This document shows positions 13,745 to 29,862 of a stretch of 59,652 nt of DNA, one piece after another. The position numbers were made by a program, and so were the translations under genes. Location of the stretch: the NCBI GenBank assembly GCA_036274515.1, contig DASUFQ010000123.1, forward strand, positions 1 to 59,652. The letters are read 5' to 3'. The DNA comes from Gemmatimonadales bacterium. Its GTDB lineage: Bacteria; Gemmatimonadota; Gemmatimonadetes; Gemmatimonadales; GWC2-71-9. Each line of letters begins with the position of its first letter. The first letter of the stretch is position 1. Under the pieces are notes generated by a model. The model made no database searches, was not told the origin of the DNA, and saw only the letters and a program-made list of their open reading frames with translations.

Positions 13745-14308
13745 ATGGCATCGCCTCGCGTCACGATCGAGCTGCCGCCCTGGGTCGACGACTTCGTCGA
13801 CTGGCGCCGCCGCTATCCGCGCCTCGAGGACCGGATGGCCCTGGTGATCGCGGTCGGACACGAGCAGGTCCGCCGCGCCACCGGCGGTCCCTTCGCCGCG
13901 GCGGTGTTCGAGCGGGATACCGGGGGCCTGGTGGCGGTCGGCGTCAACCTCGCCGTGCCGGCGCACAACTGCGCGCTGCACGCCGAAATCGTGGCGCTCA
14001 TGATGGCGGGGGCGCGGTTGCACCACCACTCGCTCGGTGCGCGGGGGCTGCCAGCGCACGACCTGGTCACCTCCTGCGAGCCGTGCGCCATGTGCCTGGG
14101 GGCCACGTTGTGGAGCGGCGTGGCGCGGCTGGTCACCGGCGCCACGAAATCCGATGCCGAGGCGGTCGGGTACGACGAAGGGCCGGTCTTCGCCGAGTCC
14201 TACGACCACCTCGAGCGCAGGGGGATTGTCGTGGTCCGGGAGGTGCTGCGCACCGAGGCGCGCGAGGTACTCCAGGCGTACCAGGCCGCCGGCGGGGACC
14301 TCTACTGA
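13745..14308 (+). CDS. Nucleoside/nucleotide deaminase (CDA/dCMP-deaminase zinc-binding fold)
   Basis: HAE (CALHAEIVAL) and PCxxC (CEPCAMC) zinc motifs. Confidence 0.8.
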   Translation: MASPRVTIELPPWVDDFVDWRRRYPRLEDRMALVIAVGHEQVRRATGGPFAAAVFERDTGGLVAVGVNLAVPAHNCALHAEIVALMMAGARLHHHSLGARGLPAHDLVTSCEPCAMCLGATLWSGVARLVTGATKSDAEAVGYDEGPVFAESYDHLERRGIVVVREVLRTEAREVLQAYQAAGGDLY

Positions 14309-15312
14309 TGCCGGCACTCTCCCGGCGGGTGCTCGGGCGCACGGACCTGGACATCACGCGGCTGGGGCTTGGCGCCTGGGCCATCGGCGGCCCCTGGCTC
14401 TTCGGCTGGGGGCCGCAGGATGACTCGGCGTCGATCGCCACGATTCGCCGCGCCGTCGAGCTCGGCATCAACTGGATCGACACCGCCGCGGTCTACGGCC
14501 TCGGGCATTCCGAGACCGTGGTCGGCCGGGCGCTCCGGGGCCTGCCCGAGGCGGACCGGCCCTACCTCTTCACGAAATGCGGGCTGGTGTGGGACGAGGA
14601 ATCGCGCACCGACGAGCCGCGGCGCGTGCTGCATCCGGCCTCCATCCGGCGCGAGTGCGAGGCATCGCTGCGGCGGCTCGGCGTCGAGCGCATCGACCTC
14701 TACCAGTTTCACTGGCCCGACGAATCGGGTGTGCCCGTCGAGGAGTCCTGGGACGCGATGCTGCGCCTGGTCGAGGAGGGAAAGGTGCGGTGGCCGGGCG
14801 TCTGCAACTTCGACGCTGCGCTGCTGGCCCGGATCGCCGCGCGGGGCCCCGTCGCGTCGCTGCAGCCGCCGCTCTCCCTCATTCGCCGGAAGGTGGCCGC
14901 CACCGAGCTGCCATGGTGCTTCAAGGAGGACGTCGGCGTGATTGCCTACAGCCCGATGCAGTCGGCCCTCCTCACCGACGGGTTTTCCGCGGAGCGTCTC
15001 GCCGGGCTGCCCCCGGACGACTATCGCCGCCGCGGCACCGAGTTCACGGGGGATCGGTTCCGGCGCAACCTCGCCCTGCGGGACGGGCTCCGGCCGGTGG
15101 CCGGCCGGCTCGGGATTTCGCTGGGCGAGCTGGCGATCGCCTGGGTGCTGGCATGGCCGGCGGTGACCGGCGCGATCGTCGGGGCCCGGGCGCCCGGGCA
15201 GGTGGACGGCTGGGTCCGCGCGACCGACGTCGTGCTCGCGCCGGAGGACCTGGACGAGATTGCCGCGGTGATCAGCCGGACAGGCGCGGGGGAGGGACCG
15301 CCGCGTCCCTGA
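14308..15312 (+). CDS. Aldo/keto reductase
   Basis: Trimmed from 14083 to ATG 14308, which overlaps the deaminase TGA by 1 nt. LGLGAWAIGG...GINWIDTAAVYGLGHSETVVGRAL...IDLYQFHWPD are typical AKR motifs. Confidence 0.9.
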   Translation: MPALSRRVLGRTDLDITRLGLGAWAIGGPWLFGWGPQDDSASIATIRRAVELGINWIDTAAVYGLGHSETVVGRALRGLPEADRPYLFTKCGLVWDEESRTDEPRRVLHPASIRRECEASLRRLGVERIDLYQFHWPDESGVPVEESWDAMLRLVEEGKVRWPGVCNFDAALLARIAARGPVASLQPPLSLIRRKVAATELPWCFKEDVGVIAYSPMQSALLTDGFSAERLAGLPPDDYRRRGTEFTGDRFRRNLALRDGLRPVAGRLGISLGELAIAWVLAWPAVTGAIVGARAPGQVDGWVRATDVVLAPEDLDEIAAVISRTGAGEGPPRP

Positions 15313-15336
15313 GGCCGGCGCAGGGGCCGCCGCGAC

Positions 15337-16068
15337 TCAGCGGCCGGGGGGGAAGATCGACACCGCCGATCCGACGGCCAGGTGGGTCGCAATCGGCTGC
15401 CGGCCGTTCAGGACCGACCATTCCGGCCCGTAGAGCGCGCCGAAGTCCACGTCGAAGTCCAAGGTCCGCACGCGCCGAAGCGCCCACTCCGGATGCTCCA
15501 CCCTGACGACGATCGGCTCGCCCCGGCGCGAGCGCCCGTACGCCCAGCGCCGGCCCAGGAGGTTGTGCGCGGCCGCGTCGGCGGCGCCCCCGGTGGACGC
15601 CTGGTCGGCCGTGATCCGCAGAAAGTAGCGGCGCTGCTCCCACCGCCACCGGTGCTCGACCACCAGTTCGTCGCCCATGCTCGCCGTGCGGCTCTCCATC
15701 GGCGCCGAACGGAACGGCTCGTTGAAGCGGAGCCGCCCGATCGCCGCCGCCAGCGGGCTCGGCACCAGCTCACGGATGGCCACCACCCCGCGGCGATCGC
15801 CCTGGCGGACGTAGGTGCGGAAGTTGATCTCGGGAAAGTCCACGAAGCCCGGGATCCGCCGCCCGCGGACCCGGGTGTCCACGAAGTCGAACGCGATGAG
15901 CGACATCAACGCGCGGCCGTCGACGAGGTCCGGCTCGACATCGCCGGCGAGCCAGGGCCCGAGCAGGGAGGCGTCGACGTCGTACGTGAGCAGCGCGAGG
16001 TTGCTCCAGCGCGCGGTCAGCGCGGGGCGGCGTCGTTCGGGCAGGCCGGTGGCTGGCAAGGAGGTCAT
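15337..16068 (-). CDS. DUF2071-like protein
   Basis: W.NLALLTYDVD...L.P.LP.G.EPD, FVDFPEINFRTYV and RRWAYGR resemble the DUF2071 (YgjF-like) family. Start set at ATG 16068 (MTSLPATG); the track uses TTG 16080. Confidence 0.6.
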   Translation of the reverse strand: MTSLPATGLPERRRPALTARWSNLALLTYDVDASLLGPWLAGDVEPDLVDGRALMSLIAFDFVDTRVRGRRIPGFVDFPEINFRTYVRQGDRRGVVAIRELVPSPLAAAIGRLRFNEPFRSAPMESRTASMGDELVVEHRWRWEQRRYFLRITADQASTGGAADAAAHNLLGRRWAYGRSRRGEPIVVRVEHPEWALRRVRTLDFDVDFGALYGPEWSVLNGRQPIATHLAVGSAVSIFPPGR

Positions 16069-16125
16069 GGACTCTATCAATAGTATACTGATTCACGCAG
16101 GGGAGACCGGAGGGAGGCGCATCGC

Positions 16126-18000
16126 GTGGGCGATCCGGGGTTGATCGCGACTGGCCGCCGCATCGGCCGCTGGGTCTGGCGCGCCGTTCGGCGGAGCCTC
16201 CGGCCGTCGGGGCTCGTCCTGGTGTACGACCCGGGCTACGCCGTGCAGGTGGCTGCGATTCCCATGGATCCGCAGCGGGCGGAGCTGGTGCTGGCGTTCC
16301 TGGCGGACGAGGGGCTGGTGCGCCGGCGCGAGTTGCTGCGCCCCCATCCGGTGTCGGTCCGGAACCTCCGCCGGGTGCACACCGACGCCTACCTCGAGTC
16401 GCTGGAGAACCGCGAGGTCGTGGAGCAGATCGTCGGCGCCCCGCTGACCGAGCCGGCAGCCATGGCGCTGGTCGATTGCCAGCGCCTCGCGGCAGGGGGC
16501 ACGATGCTCGCCGCGGCCACCGCGGTGCGCACCGGGGCGGTGGCCGTCAATCTGGGCGGCGGCTTCCATCACGCCGCCGCCGGCCGGGGCATGGGATTCT
16601 GCGCCTTCAACGACCTCGCCCTCGCCGTCGCGCGGCTCCGGGCCGGCGGATTCGCGGCGCCGGTCCTGATTGTCGACCTCGACCTTCACGACGGGAACGG
16701 CACCCGACTCCTCTTCGCGGCCGACCCCACCGTCCACACCTTCACGATCCACAACCAGGACTGGTCGCCCCGCGAGGCGGCGGCAGCCACCGTCATCGCG
16801 CTCGGGACCGCGGTGGGCGACGACCGCTACCTCTCCACGCTGCGGGAGGCGCTGCCGCCGGTGCTGCGCCAGGTCCGCCCCGGCCTCGTGCTCTACGTAG
16901 CGGGCGTCGACCCGGCGGCCGATGACGCCGTCGGTGACTGGGCCATCTCGGCAGGCGCGATGCTGGCCCGCGACCAGTTCGTGATCGAGCAGGTGCGGCG
17001 CGCGGGCGCGGAGGTGCCGCTGGCGGTGGTCCTCGGCGGTGGTTACGGCGGGAACGCGTGGCGCTACACCGCGCGGTTTCTGGGTTGGCTGGCGGCCGGG
17101 CGGGCCGTCGAGCCGCCGACCAACGCCCGCCTCCTCGTCCGGCGCGCGCAGGAGCTCCAGCGCCAGCTCCGCGACGGTGCACGCGAACTGCCGGCGGCCT
17201 CGGAATGGACCCTCACACCGGAGGATGTGGCGGCGTTCCAGCTCGGCGGGGCGCCACCGCCGCGACGGCTCCTCGGCCGGTACGCGCCGCAGGGCGTCGA
17301 GCTCCTGATGGAGCGGCTGGGCATCCTGGGGCAGGTGCGGGCCCTCGGGTTTGCCCGACCGGTCCTCGATCTCGATTTCCACCTCGAGGATTCGGATACT
17401 GTCCGGCTGTTCGGGGATCCCGCGCGCAACGAACTCCTGATGGAGATCCGCTTCCGCCGGGACCGGGCAAGCCTCCCGGGGATGGAGGTACTCTTCGTCG
17501 AGTGGGTGCTGCTGCAAAACCCGCGGCGCGCCTTTCCCTCCGGCCGGCACGCGCTGCCCGGGCAGCAACACCCGGGGCTCGGGATCTTTCGTGACGTGAT
17601 GGCGTGGCTGGTCGTCCTTTGCTCGGAACTGGGACTCGACGGACTCGTGTTCAAGCCGGCGGGCTATTTCGTCGCAACGCTCGGAAGCAGGTTTCTCGAC
17701 CCAGTCCGGCAGGCGCGGCTCGAGGCGATGCGCCGCGCGCTGGGAGGCCTCCGCGTGGTCGACGCCAGCCGGGCGGTCGAGGAGGGGCGCGTCGTCGATG
17801 TGCGCACCGGGGCGCCGGTCGCGTGGGAGCCCGCTTCGATGGTGCTCCCCGTCTCCGACCGCCTGCGGCGGCTGGTCGAGGGCGATCGGTACGAACAGGA
17901 AGTGGAGCGCGCGCTGGCCGCCCTCTCGTACCGCCTGCGGATACCGGGCGAACCGGATGCCGCGAGCGGCGTATCCAGGTCCACGCGCGGGGCCGGATGA
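16126..18000 (+). CDS. Histone-deacetylase-family (HDAC/AcuC/APAH) Zn-dependent deacetylase fused to a ~290-aa C-terminal domain of unknown function
   Basis: GTG start preceded by GGAGGGAGG. HDAC motifs: GGGFHHA (res 144-150), DLDLHDGNG (184-192), AGVDPAADD, GGGYGG (303-309). Residues ~335-624 carry no HDAC similarity and contain a GNAT-motif-A-like Q-x-x-G-x-G (QQHPGLG, 17566..17583). Confidence 0.85.
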   Translation: MGDPGLIATGRRIGRWVWRAVRRSLRPSGLVLVYDPGYAVQVAAIPMDPQRAELVLAFLADEGLVRRRELLRPHPVSVRNLRRVHTDAYLESLENREVVEQIVGAPLTEPAAMALVDCQRLAAGGTMLAAATAVRTGAVAVNLGGGFHHAAAGRGMGFCAFNDLALAVARLRAGGFAAPVLIVDLDLHDGNGTRLLFAADPTVHTFTIHNQDWSPREAAAATVIALGTAVGDDRYLSTLREALPPVLRQVRPGLVLYVAGVDPAADDAVGDWAISAGAMLARDQFVIEQVRRAGAEVPLAVVLGGGYGGNAWRYTARFLGWLAAGRAVEPPTNARLLVRRAQELQRQLRDGARELPAASEWTLTPEDVAAFQLGGAPPPRRLLGRYAPQGVELLMERLGILGQVRALGFARPVLDLDFHLEDSDTVRLFGDPARNELLMEIRFRRDRASLPGMEVLFVEWVLLQNPRRAFPSGRHALPGQQHPGLGIFRDVMAWLVVLCSELGLDGLVFKPAGYFVATLGSRFLDPVRQARLEAMRRALGGLRVVDASRAVEEGRVVDVRTGAPVAWEPASMVLPVSDRLRRLVEGDRYEQEVERALAALSYRLRIPGEPDAASGVSRSTRGAG

Positions 18001-19154: not shown

Positions 19155-19177
19155 AGTGCATATTTACCCATTATGCA
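19155..19177. promoter_or_regulatory. AT-rich island with TGCATA-N9-TATGCA dyad; candidate ARG box / argG promoter element
   Basis: AGTGCATATTTACCCATTATGCA overlaps the argG start codon (19173). It is the only AT-rich patch in the 57-nt gap upstream of a nine-gene operon that ends in argR. The TGCAT half-site is a known ARG-box variant. Confidence 0.35.
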
Positions 19178-20369
19178 AACACCATCCGGCGTCATCGCCC
19201 TGGCGTTCTCGGGCGGACTCGACACCTCCTACTGCGTGCCCCGGCTCGCCGAGCAGGGGTGGACCGTCCACACCGTCTACGTGAACACCGGCGGGGCATC
19301 CGCCGAGGCGCGCGACAGCATTCGCCGGCAGGCGGAGGCGGTGGGAAGCGTCGCGCACCACGAGATTGACGCCCGGGCGCTGGTCTACGACCGCTTCGTC
19401 CGATTTCTCATCCAGGGCAACGTGCTTCGCGGCGGCGTCTATCCGCTCAGCGTGGCCGCCGAGCGGACGCAGCAGGCGATCTCCGTCATCGAAGTGGCGC
19501 GCGCCATCGGCGCCACCGCAGTGGCGCATGGCTCCACCGGCGCCGGCAACGACCAGGTTCGATTCGATGTCACCCTCCGCGTCCTGGCGGCCGACCTCGC
19601 CATCGTGACCCCGGTCCGCGACGAGGGGCTGGCGAGGGCCCAGGCCATCGCCTACCTCGAGGCGCGCGGCCTGCCGGTCCCCGCCCGGGCCGGCGCCTAT
19701 TCGATCAACGCCGGGCTCTGGGGAACGACCTGGGGCGGTGGCTGGACCCACGACACCTGGGCCGGGCCGCCCGACGAGCTGCTGCAGCCGCCGGCCGACG
19801 CGCCGCCGGAGCGGGAAATCGTCCTGGAGTGGTCCGGCGGCCTGCCCGTGGCACTCGACGGAGCGCCGCTGGCCGGCCCTGACCTGGTGCACGCCCTCCA
19901 GGCGCTGGCGGACGCGTACGGATTCGGCCGCGGCATTCATGTCGGCGAAACGGCGCTCGGCATCAAGGGCCGGATCGGGTTCGAGGCCGGCGCCGCCGTC
20001 CTCCTCGTCGCGGCCCACCGGGAGCTCGAGAAGCTGGTGCTCACCAAGTGGCAGGCCTTCTGGAAGGACCAGCTCTCCACCTTCTACGGCGACCGGCTCC
20101 ACGAGGGGCAGTACTTCGACCCCGCCCTCCGCGACATCGAGGCGCTGTTGAGCCATTCCCAGGCCCGGGTGGTCGGGGAGACCCGGGTGCGCCTCGCCGC
20201 CGGGAAGTTCCAGGTGGTGGGGGCGCGGAGCCCGCACTCGATGATGGACGCCCGCGTGGCGACCTACGGCGAGGAGAACCGCCTCTGGACCGGCGACGAG
20301 GCGCGCGCCTTCGCGCGGGTCGCCGCCATACCCGCGCTCCTCGCGGCGCGCGCCGGCGGGGGGGAGTGA
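19173..20369 (+). CDS. argG: Argininosuccinate synthase
   Basis: ALAFSGGLDTS (ATP-PPase P-loop), HGSTGAGNDQVRF. 398 aa. Confidence 0.95.
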   Translation: MQTPSGVIALAFSGGLDTSYCVPRLAEQGWTVHTVYVNTGGASAEARDSIRRQAEAVGSVAHHEIDARALVYDRFVRFLIQGNVLRGGVYPLSVAAERTQQAISVIEVARAIGATAVAHGSTGAGNDQVRFDVTLRVLAADLAIVTPVRDEGLARAQAIAYLEARGLPVPARAGAYSINAGLWGTTWGGGWTHDTWAGPPDELLQPPADAPPEREIVLEWSGGLPVALDGAPLAGPDLVHALQALADAYGFGRGIHVGETALGIKGRIGFEAGAAVLLVAAHRELEKLVLTKWQAFWKDQLSTFYGDRLHEGQYFDPALRDIEALLSHSQARVVGETRVRLAAGKFQVVGARSPHSMMDARVATYGEENRLWTGDEARAFARVAAIPALLAARAGGGE

Positions 20370-21427
20370 TGGTCACCACGACGCGGGTTCGGCTCGATCG
20401 GGTCAGCTCGTCCACCCGGAACGCGCACCTCTCGACGGAGGTGATCGTCGGCGGCGAGATCGTCCCGGCGGAGGGATACGTCCTGGCCGTCCGGGTCCTC
20501 ACCGACAAGTCGTCCTACAACACGGTGGAGGATCTGGCCGGGCGGCTGGTGTCGCTCCGAAAGGGCGACGTGCTCGCCGGCACGCTGGGCAGCCGGCGTG
20601 CGCTGCGCGGCTATGCCGGCGAGGTCCCGGCCCGGATCGCCGTGGGCGACACCATCGACGTCCTCAACCTCGGCGGCGTGCTCGGACGCTGTACCTCCGC
20701 CAATCCGGATATCGGGCCGCCGTTCGCCGCGGAGGTGCTCGGCGCCGTCCTCGCCTTCCCGGCGCTCGGCGACCGCGTCGGCCGCCCCGCGCACATCCGG
20801 GACGGCGCCATTCCCTCGAGCGACGCCCTGGACTGCCAGGCGCCGGTGGTCTACGTGGCCGGCACGTGCATGAACGCCGGGAAGACCGTCGCCGCGACCG
20901 AACTCGTGCGCGGGCTCACCCGAAGCGGCCGCCGGGTCGCCGCCGCAAAGCTCACCGGTGTCTCACTCATGCGCGACACCCTCGCGATGCAGGATGCCGG
21001 CGCCGTGGCTGCGGTGACGTTCAACGACGCCGGCGCGGCCAGCACCCACGCGGGGATGACCGCGCCGGTCGCGAAGGGGCTCTTCAACCACCTGCAGCGC
21101 ACCGCGCGCCCCGACGTGATCGTCGCCGAACTCGGCGACGGCATCCTGGGCGAATACGGCGTGCAGGACATCCTGCGCGATCCGGAGCTCTCGGCGGCGG
21201 GCCGTGCCTGGGTCATGGCCGCGCCCGACCCTGTCGCCTGCTGGGGCGCCGACCAGCTCATGCGCGGCACCTACGCGCTGCCCATCACCGTCCTGACGGG
21301 CCCCGCCACCGACAACCAGGTCGGCCGGGACTACATCAGCCTCTCGCTCGGCATTCCCGCCCACAACGCGCTGCGGGACGCCGAGGGGCTGCTGGCCGCC
21401 GTCGTCGCCCGGCTGGAACCGGCGTGA
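20369..21427 (+). CDS. Unknown-function protein with GxxxxGKT P-loop, embedded in the arg operon
   Basis: Trimmed from 20048 to ATG 20369, which overlaps the argG TGA by 1 nt. 352 aa. N-terminal beta-rich ~150 aa, then VYVAGTCMNAGKTVAATELVRGL (20861..20887) and AELGDGILGEYG. No match to any canonical Arg enzyme that I recognise. Confidence 0.6.
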   Translation: MVTTTRVRLDRVSSSTRNAHLSTEVIVGGEIVPAEGYVLAVRVLTDKSSYNTVEDLAGRLVSLRKGDVLAGTLGSRRALRGYAGEVPARIAVGDTIDVLNLGGVLGRCTSANPDIGPPFAAEVLGAVLAFPALGDRVGRPAHIRDGAIPSSDALDCQAPVVYVAGTCMNAGKTVAATELVRGLTRSGRRVAAAKLTGVSLMRDTLAMQDAGAVAAVTFNDAGAASTHAGMTAPVAKGLFNHLQRTARPDVIVAELGDGILGEYGVQDILRDPELSAAGRAWVMAAPDPVACWGADQLMRGTYALPITVLTGPATDNQVGRDYISLSLGIPAHNALRDAEGLLAAVVARLEPA

Positions 21428-22452
21428 AGGTGGCGGTGGTGGGGGCGGCGGGCTACGTCGGGGGGGAGCTGCTCCGGATCGTCCTGCAGCACCCGGAGGT
21501 GTCCGAGGTGCTCGCCACGAGCCGGAGCCAGGCGGGAAAGCCCCTGGGCGACGTGCACCCGGCCCTGGCGACGCTCACCGACGCCAGGTTCGCGGGCCTC
21601 ACGCCGGCGGAGGCCGCGCGTGGCCAGGACGTGGTGTTCCTGTCGCTCGAGCACGGCGAATCGTCGCGGGTGGCCGGCGAGGTCTTCGACGCCGCCCCGG
21701 GGCTGGTGGTCGACCTGGCCGCCGATTTCCGCGTGCGCGACCTCCGGCTCTACGAACGGTACTACGGCGCGCATCCGGCCCCGGACCTGGTCACGCGCTT
21801 CACCTACGCGCTCGCCGATGTGCGGGGAACCGAGCTGCGCGGCGCGACCGCCCTCGCCGCGCCGGGCTGTTTTGCGACGGCCGCGCAGCTCGCGCTCTTC
21901 CCGCTCCGCGACGCCGGCGTCGCCGGGATTCCCGCGCTCTTCGGGGTGACCGGCTCCAGCGGCGCCGGGGTCCACCCGCGGCCGACCACCCACCATCCCG
22001 CCCGGGCCAGCAACCTCTTCGCGTACCTGCCGCTCGGCCATCGCCACGACGCCGAGGTGCTGCAGGCATGGCGCGGGTGGACCGGCGAGGCGGGCGCGAC
22101 CGCCAGGCTGATGACGCATTCGGGCCCTTTCGTGCGCGGCATCCACCTCACCCTGCACGCCACCGTCGACCCCGGGGTGGCTGCCCAGGTGGCCGACCGC
22201 TACGTCCGCGCCTTCGCCGGGCGGCCGTTCGTGCGCGTCCTGGATCAGCCGCCCGAACTCACGCACGCCGTCGGGACCAACCTGGCCCTCCTGCACGCCG
22301 TCGGCGACGCGGCCACCGGGGAGGTCCAGGTGATGGTGGCGCTCGACAACCTGATCAAGGGCGCCGGCGGCCAGGCGGTCCAGGCCATGAACCTGGCGCT
22401 TGGCCTCGATGAGTCGCTCGGCCTCCGCCTGGCGGCGCCGTTCCCGTGCTAG
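21424..22452 (+). CDS. argC: N-acetyl-gamma-glutamyl-phosphate reductase
   Basis: Trimmed from 20866 to GTG 21424 (GTGA overlap). VKVAVVGAAGYVGGELLRI..., catalytic-Cys region AAPGCFATAAQLAL, C-terminal DNLIKGAGGQAVQAMN. Confidence 0.9.
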   Translation: MKVAVVGAAGYVGGELLRIVLQHPEVSEVLATSRSQAGKPLGDVHPALATLTDARFAGLTPAEAARGQDVVFLSLEHGESSRVAGEVFDAAPGLVVDLAADFRVRDLRLYERYYGAHPAPDLVTRFTYALADVRGTELRGATALAAPGCFATAAQLALFPLRDAGVAGIPALFGVTGSSGAGVHPRPTTHHPARASNLFAYLPLGHRHDAEVLQAWRGWTGEAGATARLMTHSGPFVRGIHLTLHATVDPGVAAQVADRYVRAFAGRPFVRVLDQPPELTHAVGTNLALLHAVGDAATGEVQVMVALDNLIKGAGGQAVQAMNLALGLDESLGLRLAAPFPC

Positions 22453-23594
22453 CCGCCGGGGTGGAGGCGCTGCTCCCGGTTTATGCACAGATGCCGGTCC
22501 GGCCGGTGTCGGGGCGCGGCGCCTGGCTGGTGGATGAGGCGGGGGCCGAGTGGCTCGACGCCTACGGCGGCCACGCCGTGGCCTCGACCGGGCATTGTCA
22601 CCCGCGCGTCGTGGAGGCCATCGCCGCGCAGGCCGCCAAGCTGATGTTCTACTCCACCGCCGTGCCACACCCGCTGCGGGAGCAACTCGCCGCCGCGCTC
22701 GTCGCGCGCTGCCCGGCGCCGCTCGGGCGCGTCTTCTTCTGCAATTCCGGCGCGGAGGCCAACGAGAACGCCCTGCTCCTCGCACGGAAGGCCACCGGGC
22801 GCCGGGGGGTGGCGTCGGTGACGGGCGGGTGGCACGGCCGCACCGTCGCCACCCTGGCCTGTTCCGACGGGGCCGTGTACGAAGCCGGGGCGCTCCGGGC
22901 GGGGATGGCGCTTTCAACCAGGGTCGCCTTCGACGACGTCGAATCCCTCGAGCGGACGCTGGACGACACCATGGCGGCGTTGATCGTGGAACCGGTGCAG
23001 GGCATGGCGGGGGCGCGGCAGTGCAGCCCGGAATTTCTTGCCGCCGCGCGGCGGGTGTGCACCGAGCGCGGGATCGCGCTGCTCTTCGATGAGGTGCAGT
23101 GCGGCGTCGGGCGCAGCGGTGCTTTCACGGCGGCGGAGCTGTACGGCGTGGCGCCCGACGGGCTGACGCTGGCCAAGGGACTGGCCTCGGGGTATCCCAT
23201 CGGCGCGGTCATCGCCGGCCCGATGCTGTCCGGCGGCGTCGGCACGGGGGATCTCGGCAGCACCTTCGGCGGTGGACCGGTCGCCTGCGCGGCCGCGCTC
23301 GCCACGCTCGCCGTCCTGGCGGACGAGGATCTTGCCGGGAATGCCGCGCGCGTCGGGGCGCACCTCGCGACGGGCGCCCGCGCGCTCGGCGCACGGAAGG
23401 TGTGGGGCCACGGCCTGCTGCGCGGGCTCGACTTCGGGCGCCCCGCGAAGGACCTGCAGCAGGGCCTCTTCGCCCGCCGCATCCTGTCCGGCACCTCGGC
23501 CGACCCGAACGTCCTGCGCCTCATGCCGCCGCTGACGCTCTCGGTCCAGGAGGCGGACGTGCTGCTGGCGGGGCTGCGCGAGGAGCTCGCGTGA
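22446..23594 (+). CDS. argD: Acetylornithine (acyl-ornithine) aminotransferase, PLP-dependent class III
   Basis: FCNSGAEANE, DEVQCGVGRSG, PLP-lysine region TLAKGLASGYPIGA. GTG start with a 7-nt overlap onto argC. Confidence 0.9.
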   Translation: MLAAGVEALLPVYAQMPVRPVSGRGAWLVDEAGAEWLDAYGGHAVASTGHCHPRVVEAIAAQAAKLMFYSTAVPHPLREQLAAALVARCPAPLGRVFFCNSGAEANENALLLARKATGRRGVASVTGGWHGRTVATLACSDGAVYEAGALRAGMALSTRVAFDDVESLERTLDDTMAALIVEPVQGMAGARQCSPEFLAAARRVCTERGIALLFDEVQCGVGRSGAFTAAELYGVAPDGLTLAKGLASGYPIGAVIAGPMLSGGVGTGDLGSTFGGGPVACAAALATLAVLADEDLAGNAARVGAHLATGARALGARKVWGHGLLRGLDFGRPAKDLQQGLFARRILSGTSADPNVLRLMPPLTLSVQEADVLLAGLREELA

Positions 23595-24610
23595 CGAAGC
23601 GAGACTTTCTCGCGGTGGAAGACTGGCCCGCGGCCGGCATCGAGGAGATCCTGACACTCGCCGCCCGCATCAAGCGCGGCGAGGTGTGCGGCGGGCTCGA
23701 GCGACGCGTCCTGGCGATGGTCTTTCTTGACCCGAGCCTGCGCACCCGGGCGAGCTTCGAGACGGGGATGTTCCTGCACGGCGGGCACGCAGTGGTGCTC
23801 GAACCGGGCAAGGGGAGCTGGGCGCTCGAGACCGAGGACGGCGTCGTGATGGACGGCGATTCGGTGGAGCATGTGACCGAGGCCGCCCGGGTGCTCGGCC
23901 GGTACGCCGACGCCGTCGCGGTGCGCGCCTTCCCGCGCGGCGCGGACTGGGCGGTCGCGCGCGAGGACGGGGTGCTCCGGCAGTTCGCGCGCCAGTGCGA
24001 GAAGCCGGTCATCAACCTGGAGTCGTCGCGCCGGCACCCCTGCCAGGAGCTGGCGGACGCCTTCACCCTGCGCGAGAAGCTGGGCGACACCCGCGGGCGG
24101 AGGTTCGTCCTGACCTGGGCGTGGCACCCCAAGGCGCTGCCCTCCGCGGTGCCGGTCAGCGCCGCCCTGGCGGCCGCCCGCATGGGGATGGAGGTCACCA
24201 TCGCCGCGCCGGAGGGATGCGACCTCGACCCCGACGACCTCGCCACGATCGCGGCGGTGGGCCGGGAGGCGGGCGGCGGCCCGCCGAGGATCGTGCACGA
24301 CCAGGCGGAAGCGATTGCCGGCGCGGACGCGGTGTACGCAAAGTCGTGGGGCCCGGTGTCGCTCTACGGCCGGCCGGAGGCGCAACGCCCCTGGTTCGAC
24401 CGGCACCGGGACTGGCGACTGACCGCGGGACTGATGGATGCGACGCGCGGCGGTCGCGGCCTCGCCATGCACTGCCTGCCGGTGCGGCGGAACGTCGAAA
24501 TCGACGACGCGGTCCTCGACGGCCGGTGGTCGGCGGTGGTGGACCAGGCAGAAAACCGGCTGCATGTGCAGCGGGCTCTCCTCCTTACGATGATCGGGAG
24601 CACCGGGTGA
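23591..24610 (+). CDS. argF': Transcarbamylase of the N-acyl-ornithine (acetyl/succinyl-ornithine) carbamoyltransferase type
   Basis: Trimmed from 23099 to GTG 23591 (GTGA overlap). SLRTRASFE, HPCQELAD and HCLPVRRN are variants of the OTCase STRTR/HPTQ/HCLP motifs. The long loop GKGSWALETEDGVVMDGDSVEH is characteristic of AOTCase/SOTCase-like enzymes, as far as I recall. Confidence 0.75.
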   Translation: MTKRDFLAVEDWPAAGIEEILTLAARIKRGEVCGGLERRVLAMVFLDPSLRTRASFETGMFLHGGHAVVLEPGKGSWALETEDGVVMDGDSVEHVTEAARVLGRYADAVAVRAFPRGADWAVAREDGVLRQFARQCEKPVINLESSRRHPCQELADAFTLREKLGDTRGRRFVLTWAWHPKALPSAVPVSAALAAARMGMEVTIAAPEGCDLDPDDLATIAAVGREAGGGPPRIVHDQAEAIAGADAVYAKSWGPVSLYGRPEAQRPWFDRHRDWRLTAGLMDATRGGRGLAMHCLPVRRNVEIDDAVLDGRWSAVVDQAENRLHVQRALLLTMIGSTG

Positions 24611-25542
24611 GCATCGATACGACGAAGGGGATCGCCGGGCTGAAGGGGGCGCTGCGGTACGTCCGCGCCTATCGCGACCAGGTGTTCGTGGTCAAGCTCG
24701 GCGGGGAGGTGCTGGCCGACCCGCGCGCCGTCGACGGGATCGCGGCGCAGGTGTCGCTGCTCTCCAGCCTCGGCATCCGGGTGGTGGTGGTGCACGGCGG
24801 CGGCCCGCAGGGGACCGCCCTGAGCCGGCGGCTCGGCCACGAGCCGCGGATCGTCGCCGGACGGCGAGTCACCGACGACAACGGGCTGGCCGTGGCCAAG
24901 ATGGTCTACGCCGGGCAGCTGAACGTCGACCTGCTTGCGTCGCTGCGCGCGCACGAGGCGCAGGCCGTCGGGTTGAGCGGCGTGGACGCCGACCTGATCA
25001 CGGCGCATCGCCGGCCGCCAGTGCAGATGGTCAACGACGCCGGGTCGATCGAATCGGTGGACTTCGGCCATGTGGGCGACCTCGACGGCGTCGATCCCCG
25101 CGTGCTCGTCACCCTCCTCGAGGCGCGTTTCGTGCCGGTGGTGGCGAGCCTGGCGGGCGACGGGGACGGCAACGTCTTCAACGTGAACGCCGACACCGTC
25201 GCCGAGTCGCTCGCCGTGGCCCTGCGGGCGCAGAAGCTGATTTTCCTGACCGGGGCGCCGGGCGTGCTCCGCGACCGCGAGGACCCGGCCAGCCTGGTCG
25301 CCTTCGCCGACCCCGACGACCTGTCTGGCCTGCTCGCGAGCGGCGCGGTGGCCGGGGGCATGCGCCCGAAGGTGGAGGCGTGCCTCCGCGCGGCGGCTGG
25401 CGGCGTCGAGCGCACCCACATCATCGACGGCCGGGTGCCCGACGCGATCCTGCTCGAGGTGTTCACCGGGGCGGGGTGCGGCACGATGATCGTGGGCCGA
25501 AAGGAGAAGGCGACCTATCTCGACGTCGACCTGGCCGACTGA
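24607..25542 (+). CDS. argB: Acetylglutamate kinase
   Basis: Trimmed from 23995 to GTG 24607 (GTGA overlap). VVKLGGEVL, VVVHGGGPQ, NVNADTVA. Confidence 0.9.
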   Translation: MSIDTTKGIAGLKGALRYVRAYRDQVFVVKLGGEVLADPRAVDGIAAQVSLLSSLGIRVVVVHGGGPQGTALSRRLGHEPRIVAGRRVTDDNGLAVAKMVYAGQLNVDLLASLRAHEAQAVGLSGVDADLITAHRRPPVQMVNDAGSIESVDFGHVGDLDGVDPRVLVTLLEARFVPVVASLAGDGDGNVFNVNADTVAESLAVALRAQKLIFLTGAPGVLRDREDPASLVAFADPDDLSGLLASGAVAGGMRPKVEACLRAAAGGVERTHIIDGRVPDAILLEVFTGAGCGTMIVGRKEKATYLDVDLAD

Positions 25543-25549
25543 GGTCGAG

Positions 25550-26596
25550 CTGCTGCGGCAGCTGGTTGCCATCCCGTCGATCAGCGGGGAGGAGGCGGCC
25601 GTCGCCGATTTCGTCGAGCGCACCGCACGCGCCGCCGGGTTGCCGGTCGTGTGCGACCCGGCCGGGATCTCGATCCGGGTTGCCGGAGCGGCGCCGGGCC
25701 CGACGCTCGCGCTGGTTTCGCACTTGGATGTTGTCCCTCCCGGCGATGGCTGGACGCGCGATCCCTTCGCCCCCGTCATCGAGGCCGGCCGGCTCTACGG
25801 GCGAGGGTCCGGGGACGCGAAGGCATCGGTGGCGGCGATGGTCACCGCTGCGCGGGACGTGGCCGACGGCGGAGGCCCGGCGCGCGGAGACCTGCTGGTC
25901 CTGCTCGGCTTCGGCGAGGAGACCCGGCAGACCTCGATGCCGGCGCTGGTGGCCCGCGCCGGCCCGGTCGACGCCGCCATCGTCGGCGAACCGACCGACC
26001 TGGACTTTGCGGTCGCACAGCGGGGGCTGATGATGGTGGACCTCGTGGCCGCAGGCGAGCAGCGCCACGCCGGCCGGGCGTCGGAGGATGGTCCGTTCAC
26101 CAACGCGCTCACGGCCCTCGCCCGCGATCTAGTCCTGCTCGATGGGCTCTTCCTCGACCGGCCGCACCCGGTGCTGGGGCACCCCACCGTCACCGCCACC
26201 ATGGTGAGCGCGGGCGTCAGCCGGAACGTGACCCCTCCCGCCGCGACGGCGATTCTCGACGTGCGGAGCACGCCGAGCTGGAGCCATGCCGAGTTGGCCG
26301 AGGGCCTCCGGTCAGCGCTGGCGAGCGAGGTCCTCGTGACCTCCGACCGGCTCGTGCCCTGTGAAACGCCCGCCAGGTCGAGGCTCCTCGCCGCCTGCGA
26401 GTCCCGCCGCCCCGGTGCCCGGCGGTACGGCAGCCCGACCTGTTCCGACTGGGTCTTCCTGCGGCACACCGACGCGGTGAAGTGCGGGCCGGGCACCAGC
26501 CGGCGCTCGCACACCGCCGATGAATGCGTCGACCTGTCGCAGGTCACGGCAGCCCGCGAATTCTACGCCTCCGTTGCCCGGGAGTACCTGCAATGA
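25550..26596 (+). CDS. argE: M20-family deacylase (acetylornithine deacetylase / succinyl-DAP desuccinylase-like); start codon uncertain
   Basis: The track ORF starts at TTG 25640, but the same frame upstream encodes EVELLRQLVAIPSISGEEAAVADFVERTARAAGL, a typical M20 N-terminus. There is no ATG/GTG/TTG in this frame between the stop at 25487 and 25640. I placed the start provisionally at CTG 25550. Core motifs: SHLDVVPPG, GRGSGDAKA, GEE. Confidence 0.7.
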   Translation: MLRQLVAIPSISGEEAAVADFVERTARAAGLPVVCDPAGISIRVAGAAPGPTLALVSHLDVVPPGDGWTRDPFAPVIEAGRLYGRGSGDAKASVAAMVTAARDVADGGGPARGDLLVLLGFGEETRQTSMPALVARAGPVDAAIVGEPTDLDFAVAQRGLMMVDLVAAGEQRHAGRASEDGPFTNALTALARDLVLLDGLFLDRPHPVLGHPTVTATMVSAGVSRNVTPPAATAILDVRSTPSWSHAELAEGLRSALASEVLVTSDRLVPCETPARSRLLAACESRRPGARRYGSPTCSDWVFLRHTDAVKCGPGTSRRSHTADECVDLSQVTAAREFYASVAREYLQ

Positions 26597-27990
26597 CCCG
26601 CCGCCGACCGCCCCCACGGACCCTCTGGTCCGCGGCCGAAGATTCCGATCGCACCATGCTCGATTACACGGTCGGTGAGGATCGGCTGTGGGACATGCGG
26701 ATCCTCGCCTGGGACATCTACGGCAGCCTGGGGCATGCGGAGGGGCTCCGCGCGGCGCGGCTGCTGAGCGCCACGGCGCACGCGAAACTGCGCGCCGCGC
26801 TTCGCCGTGCCCTCCGGGAGGTGGAGGCGGGGGCGCTGGTGGTGGATCTGGTGCACGAGGACGCCCACAGCGCGGTCGAGGACTGGCTGACGCAGCGGCA
26901 CGGCGTCGTGGGGGAGCAGCTGCACACCGGCCGCTCGCGGAACGACCAGATCGCCTGCGACCTGCGCCTCTTCCTCAAGGAGCAGCTGCTGGACCTCCAC
27001 GAGCTGGCTGCCGACCTCTGCGACGCGCTGCTCGCCCTCGCCCGCGCGCACCAGGCGCAGCTCTGGCCCGGCCACACCCACACGCGGCGTGCGATGCCCT
27101 CGTCGGTCGGCCTCTGGGCGGGGGCCTATGCCGAGGGGCTGCTCGACACCCTCGAGTCGCTCCCCGCCCTCTGGGCCCGGGTCGACCGGTCGCCGCTCGG
27201 CAGCGCGGCGGGCTACGGCGTGCCGCTTCCCCTCAACCGCGAGGCCGCGGCCCGCGCGCTCGGGTTTGCCTCGGTCGAGCACAACGTGGCGGCGGTGCAG
27301 CTCGGACGCGGCAAGCTCGAGGCCTCGGTGCTCGCCTGGTGCGGGGAGCTGGGGCACGACCTGGCGCGCTTCAGCGCCGATGTCATCCAGCTGAGCGCCG
27401 AGGAGTACGGTTACCTCGTCCTGCCCGCGCGCTTCGCCACCGGCTCCAGCGTCATGCCGCACAAGCGGAACCCCGACCTGTTCGAGCTGACTCGTGCGCG
27501 GGCGGCCTCGATCCGGGGCGACTATGCTTCCATCGTGCAGGTCGCCTCGGGCCTCACGGGGGGATACCACCGGGATTTCCAGCTGCTGAAGGAACCGCTC
27601 TTCCGCGGCCTGCAGCGCACCAGGGAGATGCTGGCGATGCTCGCGGTGGTCGTGCCCTCCCTCGGCGTCGACCCACAGCGCTGCGCGGCGGCGCTGGCGG
27701 GCGACGTGATGGCGACCGACGAGGTGATGCGGCGGGTCGAGGCGGGCACCCCGTTCCGCCGCGCCTATCGCGAGGTGGCGGCGGAGTTGAAGGCGGGGGC
27801 CCGCTTCCCGGCCCCCTCCCGGCGGGCGCTCCTGGCGCGGCGCCGCTCGACCGGCGGACTCGGCAACCTGGGGCTGGCCGGGGTGCGGGCCCGGGTGCGG
27901 AAGCGGCGGCAGTGGGGACGGCAGCAGCGGCGGCGGTTCGAGGGGGCCCTGCGGCGACTCGCCGGCGGCGGCCCGGAGAGGAGACTGTGA
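26593..27990 (+). CDS. argH: Argininosuccinate lyase
   Basis: Trimmed from 26524 to ATG 26593 (ATGA overlap). TGRSRNDQ, GSSVMPHKRNPD. Confidence 0.95.
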   Translation: MTRRRPPPRTLWSAAEDSDRTMLDYTVGEDRLWDMRILAWDIYGSLGHAEGLRAARLLSATAHAKLRAALRRALREVEAGALVVDLVHEDAHSAVEDWLTQRHGVVGEQLHTGRSRNDQIACDLRLFLKEQLLDLHELAADLCDALLALARAHQAQLWPGHTHTRRAMPSSVGLWAGAYAEGLLDTLESLPALWARVDRSPLGSAAGYGVPLPLNREAAARALGFASVEHNVAAVQLGRGKLEASVLAWCGELGHDLARFSADVIQLSAEEYGYLVLPARFATGSSVMPHKRNPDLFELTRARAASIRGDYASIVQVASGLTGGYHRDFQLLKEPLFRGLQRTREMLAMLAVVVPSLGVDPQRCAAALAGDVMATDEVMRRVEAGTPFRRAYREVAAELKAGARFPAPSRRALLARRRSTGGLGNLGLAGVRARVRKRRQWGRQQRRRFEGALRRLAGGGPERRL

Positions 27991-28439
27991 GCACCGATCG
28001 GCGGCAGCGGCACCTGAAGATCCTCGAGCTCATCAGCACCAGCGAGCTGCGGACGCAGGAGGAAGTGGCAGCGGCCCTGGCCGACGCGGGATGGAAGGTC
28101 ACGCAGTCCTCGGTCAGCCGGGACATCGCGGCCCTCCGCCTCGTCAAGGTGAACGGGGCCTACCGTCGTCCCGTGGTGGTGGCCCGGCCCTCGGACGACC
28201 CGGACCTCCGGCGGATCGCGGAGGCGCTGATCGGCGTCGACACCGCCGGCGATGCCCTCGTCGTGCTGCGCACGCCGCCGGGCGAGGCCAGCCCGGTCGG
28301 CGCCGCCCTCGACCGGCTCGCGTGGGCCGGGGTCGTGGGCACCATCGCCGGCGACGACACGATCCTGGTGGCGGTGAGCGACGCGGCGGCGCAGCGCGCC
28401 GTGATGCGCGAGCTCCGCAAGGTGGCGGCGCTCCGTTGA
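27987..28439 (+). CDS. argR: Arginine repressor
   Basis: Trimmed from 26688 to GTG 27987 (GTGA overlap). N-terminal wHTH (RQRHLKILELISTSELRTQEEVAAALADAGWKVTQSSVSRDIAAL). C-terminal GTIAGDDTILV motif. Confidence 0.9.
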   Translation: MSTDRRQRHLKILELISTSELRTQEEVAAALADAGWKVTQSSVSRDIAALRLVKVNGAYRRPVVVARPSDDPDLRRIAEALIGVDTAGDALVVLRTPPGEASPVGAALDRLAWAGVVGTIAGDDTILVAVSDAAAQRAVMRELRKVAALR

Positions 28440-29857: not shown

Positions 29858-29862
29858 CGCGC

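What the first reader, a model, noticed from the sequence alone, without database searches (positions are those of the whole stretch)
20369..21427. Unknown P-loop protein embedded in an arginine operon that lacks argA/argJ: candidate for the missing first step
The nine-gene operon encodes argG, argC, argD, argF', argB, argE, argH and argR, but nothing recognisable as N-acetylglutamate synthase (ArgA, GNAT-type) or ornithine acetyltransferase (ArgJ). Between argG and argC sits a 352-aa protein, overlapping its neighbours at both ends (TGATG, GTGA). It has a beta-rich N-domain and a nucleotide-binding-like C-domain (GTCMNAGKT at 20861..20887). This is reminiscent of dethiobiotin-synthetase-like or DUF1611-type P-loop proteins, but I cannot verify family membership. 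Tight translational coupling inside a pathway operon suggests it acts in the pathway. The only unassigned step is acylation of glutamate.
Basis: partly seen in the sequence, partly recalled or inferred. Interest (0 to 1): 0.6.

Follow-up and report, generated by a model that had tools for sequence, protein, structure and literature searches.

The report
Predicted P-loop N-succinylglutamate synthase gene
An unnamed, highly conserved two-domain P-loop protein sits between argG and argC in this soil bacterium's arginine operon; it is most likely the pathway's missing first enzyme, probably attaching succinyl rather than acetyl to glutamate, a role a 2024-2026 preprint already predicts for what looks like the same family but nobody has tested.

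Summary
ORF 20369-21427 encodes a real 352-aa protein (X), translationally coupled to argG and argC, with the P-loop GTCMNAGKT. It matches no Pfam or NCBIfam family. X lies directly upstream of argC in all 80 related loci examined, from at least six phyla. In 199 high-quality Gemmatimonadota genomes, X and ArgJ never co-occur, and none has a classical ArgA. In the window's own family every argC-bearing genome has exactly one of them (56 X + 26 ArgJ = 82). The neighbouring ArgF' has Val, not Glu, at specificity position 92, so the pathway probably uses succinylated intermediates.

The idea is not new. [quoted passage not shown] This scan has also reported the gene on many other genomes.

What I add:
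- X keeps the full ATP-Mg catalytic set of dethiobiotin synthetase (BioD). The acetyl-CoA enzyme DgcN, its nearest structural neighbour acting on glutamate, lacks two of those residues.
- An ATP-dependent succinate-glutamate ligase is therefore as likely as a succinyl-CoA transferase.
- The N-terminal beta domain has no match among solved structures.

The parts
19173..20369 (+). argG, argininosuccinate synthase; its TGA stop overlaps the X start
   Evidence: NCBIfam NF003385/TIGR00032; junction read
20360..20366 (+). GGGGGAG, a Shine-Dalgarno-like run 2 nt before the X start codon
   Evidence: sequence
20369..21427 (+). gene X, 352 aa: candidate N-succinyl-L-glutamate-forming enzyme
20369..20836 (+). 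X N-terminal beta-rich domain (about residues 1-155). Near-invariant S14, E54, R76 and P87. No match to a solved structure.
   Evidence: AF2 pLDDT 92.8 when folded alone; best VIA Z 3.5; conservation
20837..21427 (+). X C-terminal SIMIBI/BioD-like P-loop domain
   Evidence: VIA Z 17.4/16.8/15.7 to DUF1611/DgcN and 15.4 to BioD; hhalign to BioD 86%
20861..20887 (+). Walker A motif GTCMNAGKT (K172, T173)
   Evidence: K172 in 341 of 342 and T173 in 340 of 342 homologues
20948..20950 (+). K194, 22 residues after the P-loop Lys; aligns with BioD K37
20975..20977 (+). D203; aligns with the BioD Mg ligand Asp (E. coli D54)
21128..21130 (+). E254 in ELGDG, a Walker-B-like motif; aligns with the BioD EGAGG Glu (E. 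coli E115)
21424..22452 (+). [quoted passage not shown]
   Evidence: TIGR01850, 308.8 bits
22446..23594 (+). argD, N-acylornithine aminotransferase
23591..24610 (+). argF', N-acylornithine carbamoyltransferase; Val92 (23864-23866) predicts N-succinylornithine specificity
   Evidence: NF003384, 405 bits; alignment to X. campestris AOTCase, where the best PDB match is the E92V mutant 3l06
24607..25542 (+). argB, N-acylglutamate kinase
   Evidence: TIGR00761, 211 bits
25517..26596 (+). argE-like M20 deacylase (would remove the acyl group from N-acylcitrulline); start codon uncertain (ATC 25517 or CTG 25550; first canonical start is TTG 25640)
26593..27990 (+). argH, argininosuccinate lyase (ATGA overlap with the argE stop)
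27987..28439 (+). argR, arginine repressor, last cistron (GTGA overlap with the argH stop)
   Evidence: TIGR01529

Best explanation
X is the operon's missing first enzyme. It blocks the alpha-amino group of L-glutamate with an acyl group, most likely succinyl, giving N-succinyl-L-glutamate. ArgB, ArgC and ArgD then convert this to N-succinylornithine. ArgF' (Val92 type) carbamoylates it, and the M20 ArgE-like hydrolase removes succinate to give citrulline for ArgG and ArgH.

Shown here: the gene is real, belongs to a large family without a name, is locked to argC, and replaces ArgJ in the phyletic pattern.

Inferred: the reaction itself.

The chemistry is open between two options. I lean slightly (about 55:45) to the first.
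(a) A BioD-type ATP-dependent ligase: succinate + ATP gives succinyl phosphate on the P-loop domain, which the glutamate amine then attacks, releasing ADP and Pi. This would re-use the free succinate released by ArgE.
(b) A DgcN-type succinyl-CoA:L-glutamate N-succinyltransferase.

The conserved beta-rich N-domain (E54, R76, P87) would supply the binding site for glutamate or succinate.
For: Gene order:
- X lies immediately upstream of argC in 80 of 80 loci from Gemmatimonadota, Myxococcota, Acidobacteriota, Planctomycetota, Elusimicrobiota and Pseudomonadota.
- It stays with argC-argD-argB when the operon is rearranged and lacks argF' (L087, L089, L091), or lacks both argF' and argE (homologues at 45% identity in other Gemmatimonadota: argR-X-argC-argD-argB).

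Phyletic pattern in 199 high-quality Gemmatimonadota genomes:
- X in 65, ArgJ in 63, none with both.
- The NAT-type synthase occurs only in 8, none of which has X. Classical ArgA occurs in none.
- In family f1, argC is in 82 of 97 genomes, equal to 56 with X plus 26 with ArgJ. The 15 genomes without argC have neither.
- Five X-bearing genomes of other phyla, one labelled as a chromosome-level assembly, also lack ArgJ and ArgA.
- No GNAT gene flanks the operon.

Acyl group: ArgF' has Val at the position of E92 of X. campestris AOTCase. In 63 neighbouring ArgF' proteins this position is V 56, A 4, I 1, T 1, P 1 and never E. According to Shi et al. 2007, as quoted in the preprint, E92 changed to A, P, S or V switches specificity to N-succinylornithine.

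Fold: the AF2 model has pLDDT 96.8. The best structural neighbours of the C-domain are the DUF1611 proteins 2g0t (Z 17.4) and 2obn (16.8), then DgcN 7xrj, 'N-acetyltransferase' (15.7), then BioD 1a82 (15.4).

Support for ATP chemistry:
- hhalign of the X family against BioD gives 86% probability. It aligns K172, T173, K194, D203 and E254 with BioD K15, T16, K37, D54 and E115.
- These residues are kept in 338-341 of 342 homologues spanning 28-100% identity.
- DgcN and other DUF1611 chains read GKM or GKR and ATGQTG, so they lack the Thr and the second Lys.
- X against DUF1611 scores only 43%.

Independent prediction: the GapMind 2026 preprint reaches the same role for a protein of the same description.
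Against: - There is no biochemical or genetic test anywhere, so everything rests on context and homology.
- The exclusion of X and ArgJ partly reflects inheritance of whole pathway types. X travels with the linear argF'/argE type and ArgJ with the cyclic type. Related genomes are not independent samples.
- Small single-domain GNAT synthases (the Mycobacterium or Corynebacterium type) cannot be excluded by family searches, because every genome carries many GNATs.
- The window's own genome is only 63% complete.
- Succinyl specificity rests on one residue of a neighbouring enzyme. NCBIfam names that enzyme an N-acetylornithine carbamoyltransferase.
- For the ATP option, residue roles are transferred from BioD by alignment and were not tested. 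No coordinates were available to check the geometry. All known N-acylglutamate synthases use acyl-CoA or transacetylation.
- Structural Z-scores for DUF1611 and BioD differ by 2 or less, so the fold does not settle the chemistry.
- I could not compare X directly with the preprint's protein A0A127FCT3.
Confidence: 0.75

Rival explanations
1. X makes N-acetyl-L-glutamate rather than N-succinyl-L-glutamate. The role (first step) is the same but the protecting group differs.
For: NCBIfam names the neighbouring enzyme N-acetylornithine carbamoyltransferase (NF003384, 405 bits), and it is about as similar to X. campestris AOTCase as a family member can be. DgcN, the one characterised enzyme among the nearest structural neighbours, transfers acetyl (EC 2.3.1.312 in PMC11747546). 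Some X operons lack argF' altogether, so that marker says nothing for them.
Against: ArgF' position 92 is Val here and never Glu in 63 neighbouring ArgF' proteins. The single change E92 to V, A, S or P is reported to switch the enzyme to N-succinylornithine (Shi et al. 2007).
Confidence: 0.08
2. X is not a catalyst of the pathway but an accessory NTPase. It could be a metal-insertion or assembly factor for the M20 deacylase ArgE, or a scaffold or regulator of ArgB/ArgC, as many SIMIBI P-loop proteins are (HypB, UreG, MeaB, ApbC).
For: The fold search lists HypB, UreG, ApbC and MeaB-like chains at Z 12-15. An intact NTP-Mg site fits a switch as well as a ligase.
Against: X stays next to argC, argD and argB in clusters without argE, and the preprint reports X in a genome that lacks ArgE. 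This reading leaves the first step unfilled in 64 near-complete genomes. X has no NKxD guanine motif and no Cys/His metal motif, and C167 is replaceable by S, A or G. The second Lys (K194) is a mark of the BioD/CTP-synthase ligase group, not of the chaperones (own knowledge).
Confidence: 0.1
3. X catalyses a different reaction tied to arginine metabolism, for example another ATP-dependent amide- or ureido-forming step or a salvage reaction. The first step would then be done by an unrecognised small GNAT elsewhere in the genome.
For: BioD-like enzymes catalyse varied C-N bond formations (own knowledge). Small GNATs cannot be excluded. A distant paralogue (33% identity) lies outside any arg cluster, next to a PGA_cap protein, so the family is not restricted to arginine.
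Against: Every other step of the pathway has an assigned gene in the operon. The exact complementarity with ArgJ in argC-bearing genomes is what a replacement of the glutamate-acylating activity predicts.
Confidence: 0.07

Closest known systems
[quoted passage not shown]
   Same: The description matches in four respects, all re-tested here on X. It is a hypothetical protein almost always inside arginine clusters with argG, argC, argD, argF', argB, argE, argH and argR. It never co-occurs with ArgA. It has a remote structural likeness to DgcN 7XRJ. The neighbouring ArgF' has A, P, S or V at position 92.
   Different: I could not obtain that protein's sequence, so identity of the two families is inferred and not measured. 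The preprint does not mention Gemmatimonadota and does not discuss ATP-dependent chemistry or the N-domain. S. denitrificans lacks ArgE, whereas this operon has one.
DgcN, D-glutamate N-acetyltransferase (DUF1611 family, PF07755; PDB 7XRJ; EC 2.3.1.312; Yu et al. 2023, ISME J 17:537)
   Same: The C-terminal P-loop domain fold (Z 15.7; other DUF1611 structures 17.4 and 16.8). GTxxNxGK and ExGxG motifs align. It acylates the amino group of glutamate.
   Different: X is below the Pfam threshold (18.6 against 25 bits), and hhalign gives only 43%. DgcN reads GKMY and ATGQTG where X has GKT and AAKLTG. The N-domains differ: X has a beta-rich domain with no match to a solved structure. A true DgcN-like gene exists elsewhere in the same genomes, in X-bearing and ArgJ-bearing ones alike. 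DgcN acts on the D isomer, in catabolism.
Dethiobiotin synthetase BioD (and the BioD-like ATP-dependent C-N ligases CTP synthase and CobB/CobQ)
   Same: hhalign gives 86% probability over 102 columns. X K172, T173, K194, D203 and E254 sit on BioD K15, T16, K37, D54 and E115. The spacing of 22 residues between the two lysines is the same. Structural Z is 15.4. These enzymes phosphorylate a carboxyl or carbonyl oxygen with ATP and then form a C-N bond, which is the chemistry needed to join succinate to glutamate.
   Different: X scores far below the family cut-offs (bioD 16 against 83.3 bits). It has an extra 155-residue N-domain, a different substrate and a different genomic context.
ArgA / ArgJ / bifunctional ArgA-B (GNAT, DmpA/OAT and NAT-domain N-acetylglutamate synthases)
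   Same: The proposed role is the same: producing N-acylglutamate for ArgB. Their distribution is complementary to X.
   Different: No sequence or fold relationship.
LysX/ArgX with the LysW carrier protein (ATP-grasp ligases of the amino-group carrier pathway)
   Same: This is a precedent for ATP-dependent attachment of the amino-protecting group in arginine or lysine synthesis (own knowledge). Such clusters occur in other Gemmatimonadota that have neither X nor ArgJ.
   Different: ATP-grasp fold and a protein carrier. No lysW gene is present in this operon, and ArgB here scores as the acetylglutamate-kinase type.

Membership tests
GapMind-2026 predicted alternative N-succinylglutamate synthase family (ACG33_RS14135-like) | Hypothetical protein of about 350 aa found almost always inside arginine biosynthesis clusters | tested here: met
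   X is adjacent to argC in 80 of 80 loci and in 5 of 6 more distant Gemmatimonadota loci
GapMind-2026 predicted alternative N-succinylglutamate synthase family (ACG33_RS14135-like) | Does not co-occur with ArgA-type synthases | tested here: met
   ArgA (TIGR01890) over cut-off in 0 of 199 genomes and 0 of 5 genomes of other phyla. No overlap with ArgJ.
GapMind-2026 predicted alternative N-succinylglutamate synthase family (ACG33_RS14135-like) | Remote structural similarity to DgcN (PDB 7XRJ) | tested here: met
   VIA Z 15.7, rmsd 3.0 A over 180 residues
GapMind-2026 predicted alternative N-succinylglutamate synthase family (ACG33_RS14135-like) | Neighbouring ArgF' has A, P, S or V (not E) at position 92 | tested here: met
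   Val92 in the window. V 56, A 4, I 1, T 1, P 1 and E 0 in 63 loci.
GapMind-2026 predicted alternative N-succinylglutamate synthase family (ACG33_RS14135-like) | Significant sequence similarity to A0A127FCT3 itself | not testable with these tools
   The sequence could not be fetched. No Steroidobacter record appeared among the listed homologues.
DUF1611 / DgcN (PF07755) | Match to the Pfam model over the gathering score | tested here: not met
   18.6 bits against a cut-off of 25, residues 154-195 only. 15 of 60 family members match at E <= 0.01, best E 1.3e-5.
DUF1611 / DgcN (PF07755) | Profile-level homology of the P-loop domain | tested here: inconclusive
   hhalign probability 43%, E 2.5e-4 over 180 columns. 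No DUF1611 chain appears in the PDB profile search at E <= 1.
DUF1611 / DgcN (PF07755) | N-terminal domain of the DUF1611 type | tested here: inconclusive
   The X N-domain is all-beta. Folded alone, it finds no chain above Z 3.5. DUF1611 chains align to X essentially through the C-domain.
Dethiobiotin synthetase BioD (TIGR00347 / PF13500) | Match over the family cut-off | tested here: not met
   TIGR00347 16 bits against 83.3; PF13500 14.3 against 27
Dethiobiotin synthetase BioD (TIGR00347 / PF13500) | ATP-Mg catalytic set: P-loop Lys and Thr, second Lys 22 residues later, Asp and Glu Mg ligands | tested here: met
   hhalign column mapping. Conserved in 338-341 of 342 homologues. Residue roles in BioD are from established knowledge.
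GNAT-type ArgA / ArgJ | GNAT or ArgJ domain | tested here: not met
   No such match in Pfam or NCBIfam

The most novel reading that the evidence does not exclude
X is an ATP-dependent succinate:L-glutamate ligase that works by BioD-type acyl-phosphate chemistry. It would be the first arginine-pathway 'ArgA' that needs no acyl-CoA, recycling the free succinate released by ArgE at the cost of one ATP per arginine. It would be built from a BioD-like P-loop domain plus a substrate-binding beta domain of a fold not yet seen in solved structures.
Probability: 0.4. Interest if true: 0.7.

Novelty: new member of a known kind. Interest (0 to 1): 0.45.

Why it matters
N-acylglutamate synthesis is the committed and usually regulated step of arginine biosynthesis. 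It shows up as a gap in genome-based metabolic reconstructions of several abundant soil and sediment phyla, including Gemmatimonadota, Acidobacteriota, Myxococcota and Elusimicrobiota. Confirming X would have three consequences:
- It would close that gap for hundreds of species.
- It would correct auxotrophy predictions.
- It would add a non-GNAT solution, based on a P-loop domain, to a textbook step.

If the chemistry proves to be ATP-dependent, X would also be a new reaction class for this step. The prediction itself is already in a preprint. What is left is the bench test and the mechanism.

Tried and rejected
A 6-row alignment worked.
- The DgcN paper (PMC10030869) is not held, so DgcN's catalytic residues and CoA-binding mode could not be compared.
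- Attempts to tie X to A0A127FCT3 by sequence failed. A homologue search from the locus labelled Pseudomonadota and the cluster look-ups returned no Steroidobacter record.
- Complex prediction of an X homodimer with ATP and Mg gave no verdict (score 0.05 against a mark of 0.42). This is not evidence either way.
- No RNA holder is listed for the locus. The only holder is one soil metagenome DNA run, possibly the source sample.
- Longer, fused forms exist and two more were checked by Pfam. X+ArgC and X+ArgG are single-member proteins, most likely read-through of the overlapping stop and start codons. One X+ArgB (amino-acid kinase) representative exists (P0237). I give it little weight.
- The X N-domain, folded alone, found no solved chain above Z 3.5. 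This does not prove a new fold.
- I considered that the argC-bearing Gemmatimonadota with neither X nor ArgJ might expose a further gap. Of three argC neighbourhoods checked, one (L121) was annotated and is a lysW-lysX-lysY-lysZ-lysJ carrier-protein cluster. A second (L122) has the same gene spacing. The third (L123) is an ordinary argC-argB-argD cluster with no visible first-step gene.
- A literature search for BioD residue roles found nothing usable. Those roles are from my own knowledge.
Full report
**1. The observation**

The window has 72-74% G+C, so long ORFs occur on every strand. The ORF at 20369-21427 is nevertheless a real gene.
- It translates to 352 residues.
- Its ATG shares one base with the argG stop (TGATG) and follows a GGGGGAG run.
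- Its TGA overlaps the GTG start of argC (GTGA).
- The motif GTCMNAGKT is residues 165-173, nt 20861-20887.

NCBIfam confirms the neighbours: argG, argC, argD, argF' (NF003384, 405 bits), argB, an M20 ArgE/DapE-type deacylase, argH and argR. All are joined by overlapping or abutting stops and starts. X itself gets only sub-threshold P-loop matches: DUF1611_C at 18.6 bits against a cut-off of 25, plus MobB, CbiA, AAA_26 and bioD. No GNAT or ArgJ gene lies in or beside the operon.

**2. A large family without a name**

X has more than 3,300 homologues in the 90%-identity database. The nearest are 75-91% identical 'hypothetical proteins' of Gemmatimonadales. A full scan of the 50%-identity representatives gives 1,398 clusters at E <= 1e-3 and 158 at E <= 1e-30, nearly all about 350 aa long. 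None of 60 diverse members reaches a Pfam threshold.

In 342 full-length homologues spanning 28-100% identity, the following residues are almost invariant:

| Residue | Conserved in (of 342) |
|---|---|
| K172 | 341 |
| T173 | 340 |
| K194 | 341 |
| D203 | 340 |
| E254 | 338 |
| D287 | 338 |
| E54 (N-domain) | 339 |
| R76 (N-domain) | 339 |
| P87 (N-domain) | 340 |

**3. Structure**

AlphaFold2 with the 60-row alignment gives mean pLDDT 96.8 and pTM 0.93. The model has a beta-rich N-domain (about residues 1-150) and an alpha/beta P-loop C-domain.

An all-against-representatives structural search puts three DUF1611 entries first: TM0796 2g0t (Z 17.4), 2obn (Z 16.8) and 7xrj 'N-acetyltransferase DgcN' (Z 15.7). 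BioD 1a82 follows directly (Z 15.4), then ApbC, CTP synthase, SRP GTPases and HypB. These scores are close to tied, and all of them cover only the C-domain.

Folded alone, the N-domain is still confident (pLDDT 92.8) but finds nothing above Z 3.5 among 48,161 solved chains. That is no proof of a new fold, but it is clearly not the N-domain of DUF1611.

**4. Gene context**

A pattern scan of one genome per species found at least 582 genomes encoding a relative. The 80 best loci come from Gemmatimonadota, Myxococcota, Acidobacteriota/Thermoanaerobaculia, Planctomycetota, Elusimicrobiota, and Alphaproteobacteria or other Pseudomonadota.
- Using the window's own arg proteins as probes, X is directly upstream of argC in all 80.
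- The usual order is argG-X-argC-argD-argF'-argB-argE-argH-argR.
- In three Myxococcota or 'Deltaproteobacteria' loci the order is X-argC-(argD)-argB-argE-(argR)-argG-argH, without argF'.
- In other Gemmatimonadota families, homologues at 45% identity sit in argR-X-argC-argD-argB clusters without argF' or argE.

X therefore follows the three enzymes that handle the N-acyl intermediates, not ArgE.

One 33%-identical paralogue (L105) is outside any arg cluster, beside a PGA_cap protein. The family is thus not wholly arginine-bound.

**5. Phyletic pattern**

In 199 Gemmatimonadota genomes at least 90% complete:
- X occurs in 65.
- ArgJ occurs in 63.
- The NAT-domain synthase occurs in 8, all of one family.
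- A classical two-domain ArgA occurs in none.
- No genome, and no genus, has both X and ArgJ.
- argC occurs in 157.

In the window's own family, argC is present in 82 of 97 genomes. These are exactly the 56 with X plus the 26 with ArgJ. The 15 genomes without argC have neither. All five near-complete genomes of the window's genus have X and no ArgJ, NAT or ArgA. This repairs the weakness that the window's own genome is only 63% complete.

Five X-bearing genomes of other phyla, one labelled as a chromosome-level assembly, also lack ArgJ and ArgA.

Three caveats apply:
- Related genomes are not independent.
- X travels with a whole pathway type.
- Small GNAT synthases cannot be excluded.

These tallies include the unpublished genomes G053 (X, argC), G178 (ArgJ, argC) and G153 (ArgJ).

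Of three X-less, ArgJ-less argC neighbourhoods checked, the one annotated (L121) is a lysW-lysX-lysY-lysZ-lysJ carrier-protein cluster. A second (L122) has the same gene spacing.

**6. Which acyl group**

The window's ArgF' aligns without gaps to X. campestris N-acetylornithine transcarbamylase. Its residue 92 is Val where that enzyme has Glu. Fittingly, the best-scoring PDB sequence is the E92V mutant 3l06. In 63 ArgF' proteins next to X, the residue is V 56, A 4, I 1, T 1, P 1 and never E. Shi et al. 2007, as quoted in the preprint, showed that changing E92 to A, P, S or V switches the enzyme to N-succinylornithine. The pathway is therefore probably succinyl-based, and X would make N-succinylglutamate.

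**7. Prior art**

The scan's own index showed that many earlier windows carry this gene, and pointed to a preprint. I read it: 'GapMind 2026', bioRxiv 10.1101/2024.10.14.618325, version of 2 July 2026.

[quoted passage not shown] Its grounds are the same four I reproduced above: the arg-cluster context, no co-occurrence with ArgA, a Foldseek hit to 7XRJ, and ArgF' position 92. It reports no experiment for this protein.

I could not fetch that sequence. That X is the same family is therefore an inference from the matching description. The Atlas look-up does show that X-like clusters are common in Pseudomonadota.

**8. What is added here: the chemistry**

The preprint leans on DgcN, an acetyl-CoA enzyme (EC 2.3.1.312). 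At the sequence level, however, X is closer to BioD than to DgcN.
- hhalign of the X family against a single BioD sequence (from the window's own genome) gives 86% probability.
- That alignment places X K172, T173, K194, D203 and E254 on BioD K15, T16, K37, D54 and E115.
- By established knowledge, those BioD residues are the P-loop Lys, the three Mg ligands, and the second Lys that stabilises phosphoryl transfer. The 22-residue spacing between the two lysines is also found in CTP synthase.
- X against nine DgcN-like sequences gives 43%.
- DgcN-like sequences against BioD give 6%.
- In DgcN 7xrj and the other DUF1611 structures, the P-loop reads GKM or GKR and the second-lysine site reads ATGQTG.

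The alignment A4 used for these comparisons contains one sequence (L113) from the unpublished genome G093.

True DgcN-like genes (about 250 bits) exist in the same genomes, in X-bearing and ArgJ-bearing ones alike. X is therefore a separate family.

All characterised enzymes with the BioD constellation use ATP to phosphorylate a carboxyl or carbonyl oxygen and then form a C-N bond. Joining succinate to the glutamate amine is that kind of reaction, and ArgE releases free succinate each turn. The LysX/ArgX ligases show that ATP-dependent amino protection already exists in this pathway family (own knowledge).

I therefore rate an ATP-dependent ligase as at least as likely as a succinyl-CoA transferase. 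This rests on alignment only. I had no coordinates with which to check the geometry.

**9. Verdict**

Confidence that X supplies the first step is about 0.75. The remainder is divided among an acetyl variant, an accessory NTPase and an unrelated reaction.

The finding is a new member of a family whose role has already been predicted in a preprint and repeatedly noted by this scan. Interest is therefore moderate. It would rise if the ATP-dependent mechanism were shown.

Noticed in passing
window 25490-25660: The M20 argE-like gene has no canonical start where its conserved N-terminus (TEVELLRQLVAIPSISGEE) begins; the first ATG/GTG/TTG is TTG 25640, about 35 codons too late. Most homologues start at a TTG about 10 codons before the LLRxLV motif, and here that codon is TCG (25520). 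ATC 25517 or CTG 25550 may serve as the start. The closest relative (L022) has the same TCG-type change but a TTG at the LLRQLV leucine.
   Followed up: partly
L105:9374-10447 (G043:C21): A 33%-identical paralogue of X lies outside any arginine cluster. It sits between an unknown 407-aa protein and an 800-aa protein with a PGA_cap (poly-gamma-glutamate capsule) domain, followed by an ABC exporter. The family may have a second, glutamate-polymer-related role.
   Followed up: partly
L102, L103, L104, L106, L107 (Gemmatimonadota families other than the window's): X homologues at 45% identity sit in argR-X-argC-argD-argB(-argG-argH) clusters with no argF' or argE nearby and no ArgJ in the genome. 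How these organisms remove the acyl group was not examined.
   Followed up: no
G000:C132:3724-4332 and G000:C131:3724-4332: The window's genome also carries a true DUF1611/DgcN-like gene (about 250 bits). It appears at identical coordinates on two contigs, which suggests that the assembly holds the same stretch twice.
   Followed up: no
L120 (G000:C124:431-1099, minus strand): A BioD gene was found only on a 2-kb contig of the window's genome and in none of 12 genomes of the same genus or 8 of the order. It may be contamination of the bin, or a variable gene.
   Followed up: no
L121:8122-11759 (G060), similar spacing in L122 (G054): In other Gemmatimonadota the 'argC' match belongs to a lysW-lysX-lysY-lysZ-lysJ carrier-protein cluster. 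A 216-aa ORF weakly like EgtC lies between lysY and lysZ.
   Followed up: partly
protein P0237 (626 aa, metagenomic representative): A single representative fuses X to an ArgB-type amino-acid kinase domain, which recalls the kinase-plus-synthase architecture of ArgA and the bifunctional ArgA-B. It was not verified on DNA. The X+ArgC and X+ArgG fusions are single-member proteins and look like read-through artefacts.
   Followed up: partly
L123 (G032:C1:269500-289400): A genome of the sister family has argC-argB-argD facing argR-argG-argH with no X, ArgJ, ArgA or NAT found. Its first step remains unassigned.
   Followed up: no
window 14308-18000 and 28841-31350: The operon's flanks encode an aldo/keto reductase, a 624-aa histone-deacetylase-family protein, an unknown 381-aa protein, XdhC, and an HMG-CoA reductase with its N-terminal domain. 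None is linked to arginine.
   Followed up: no
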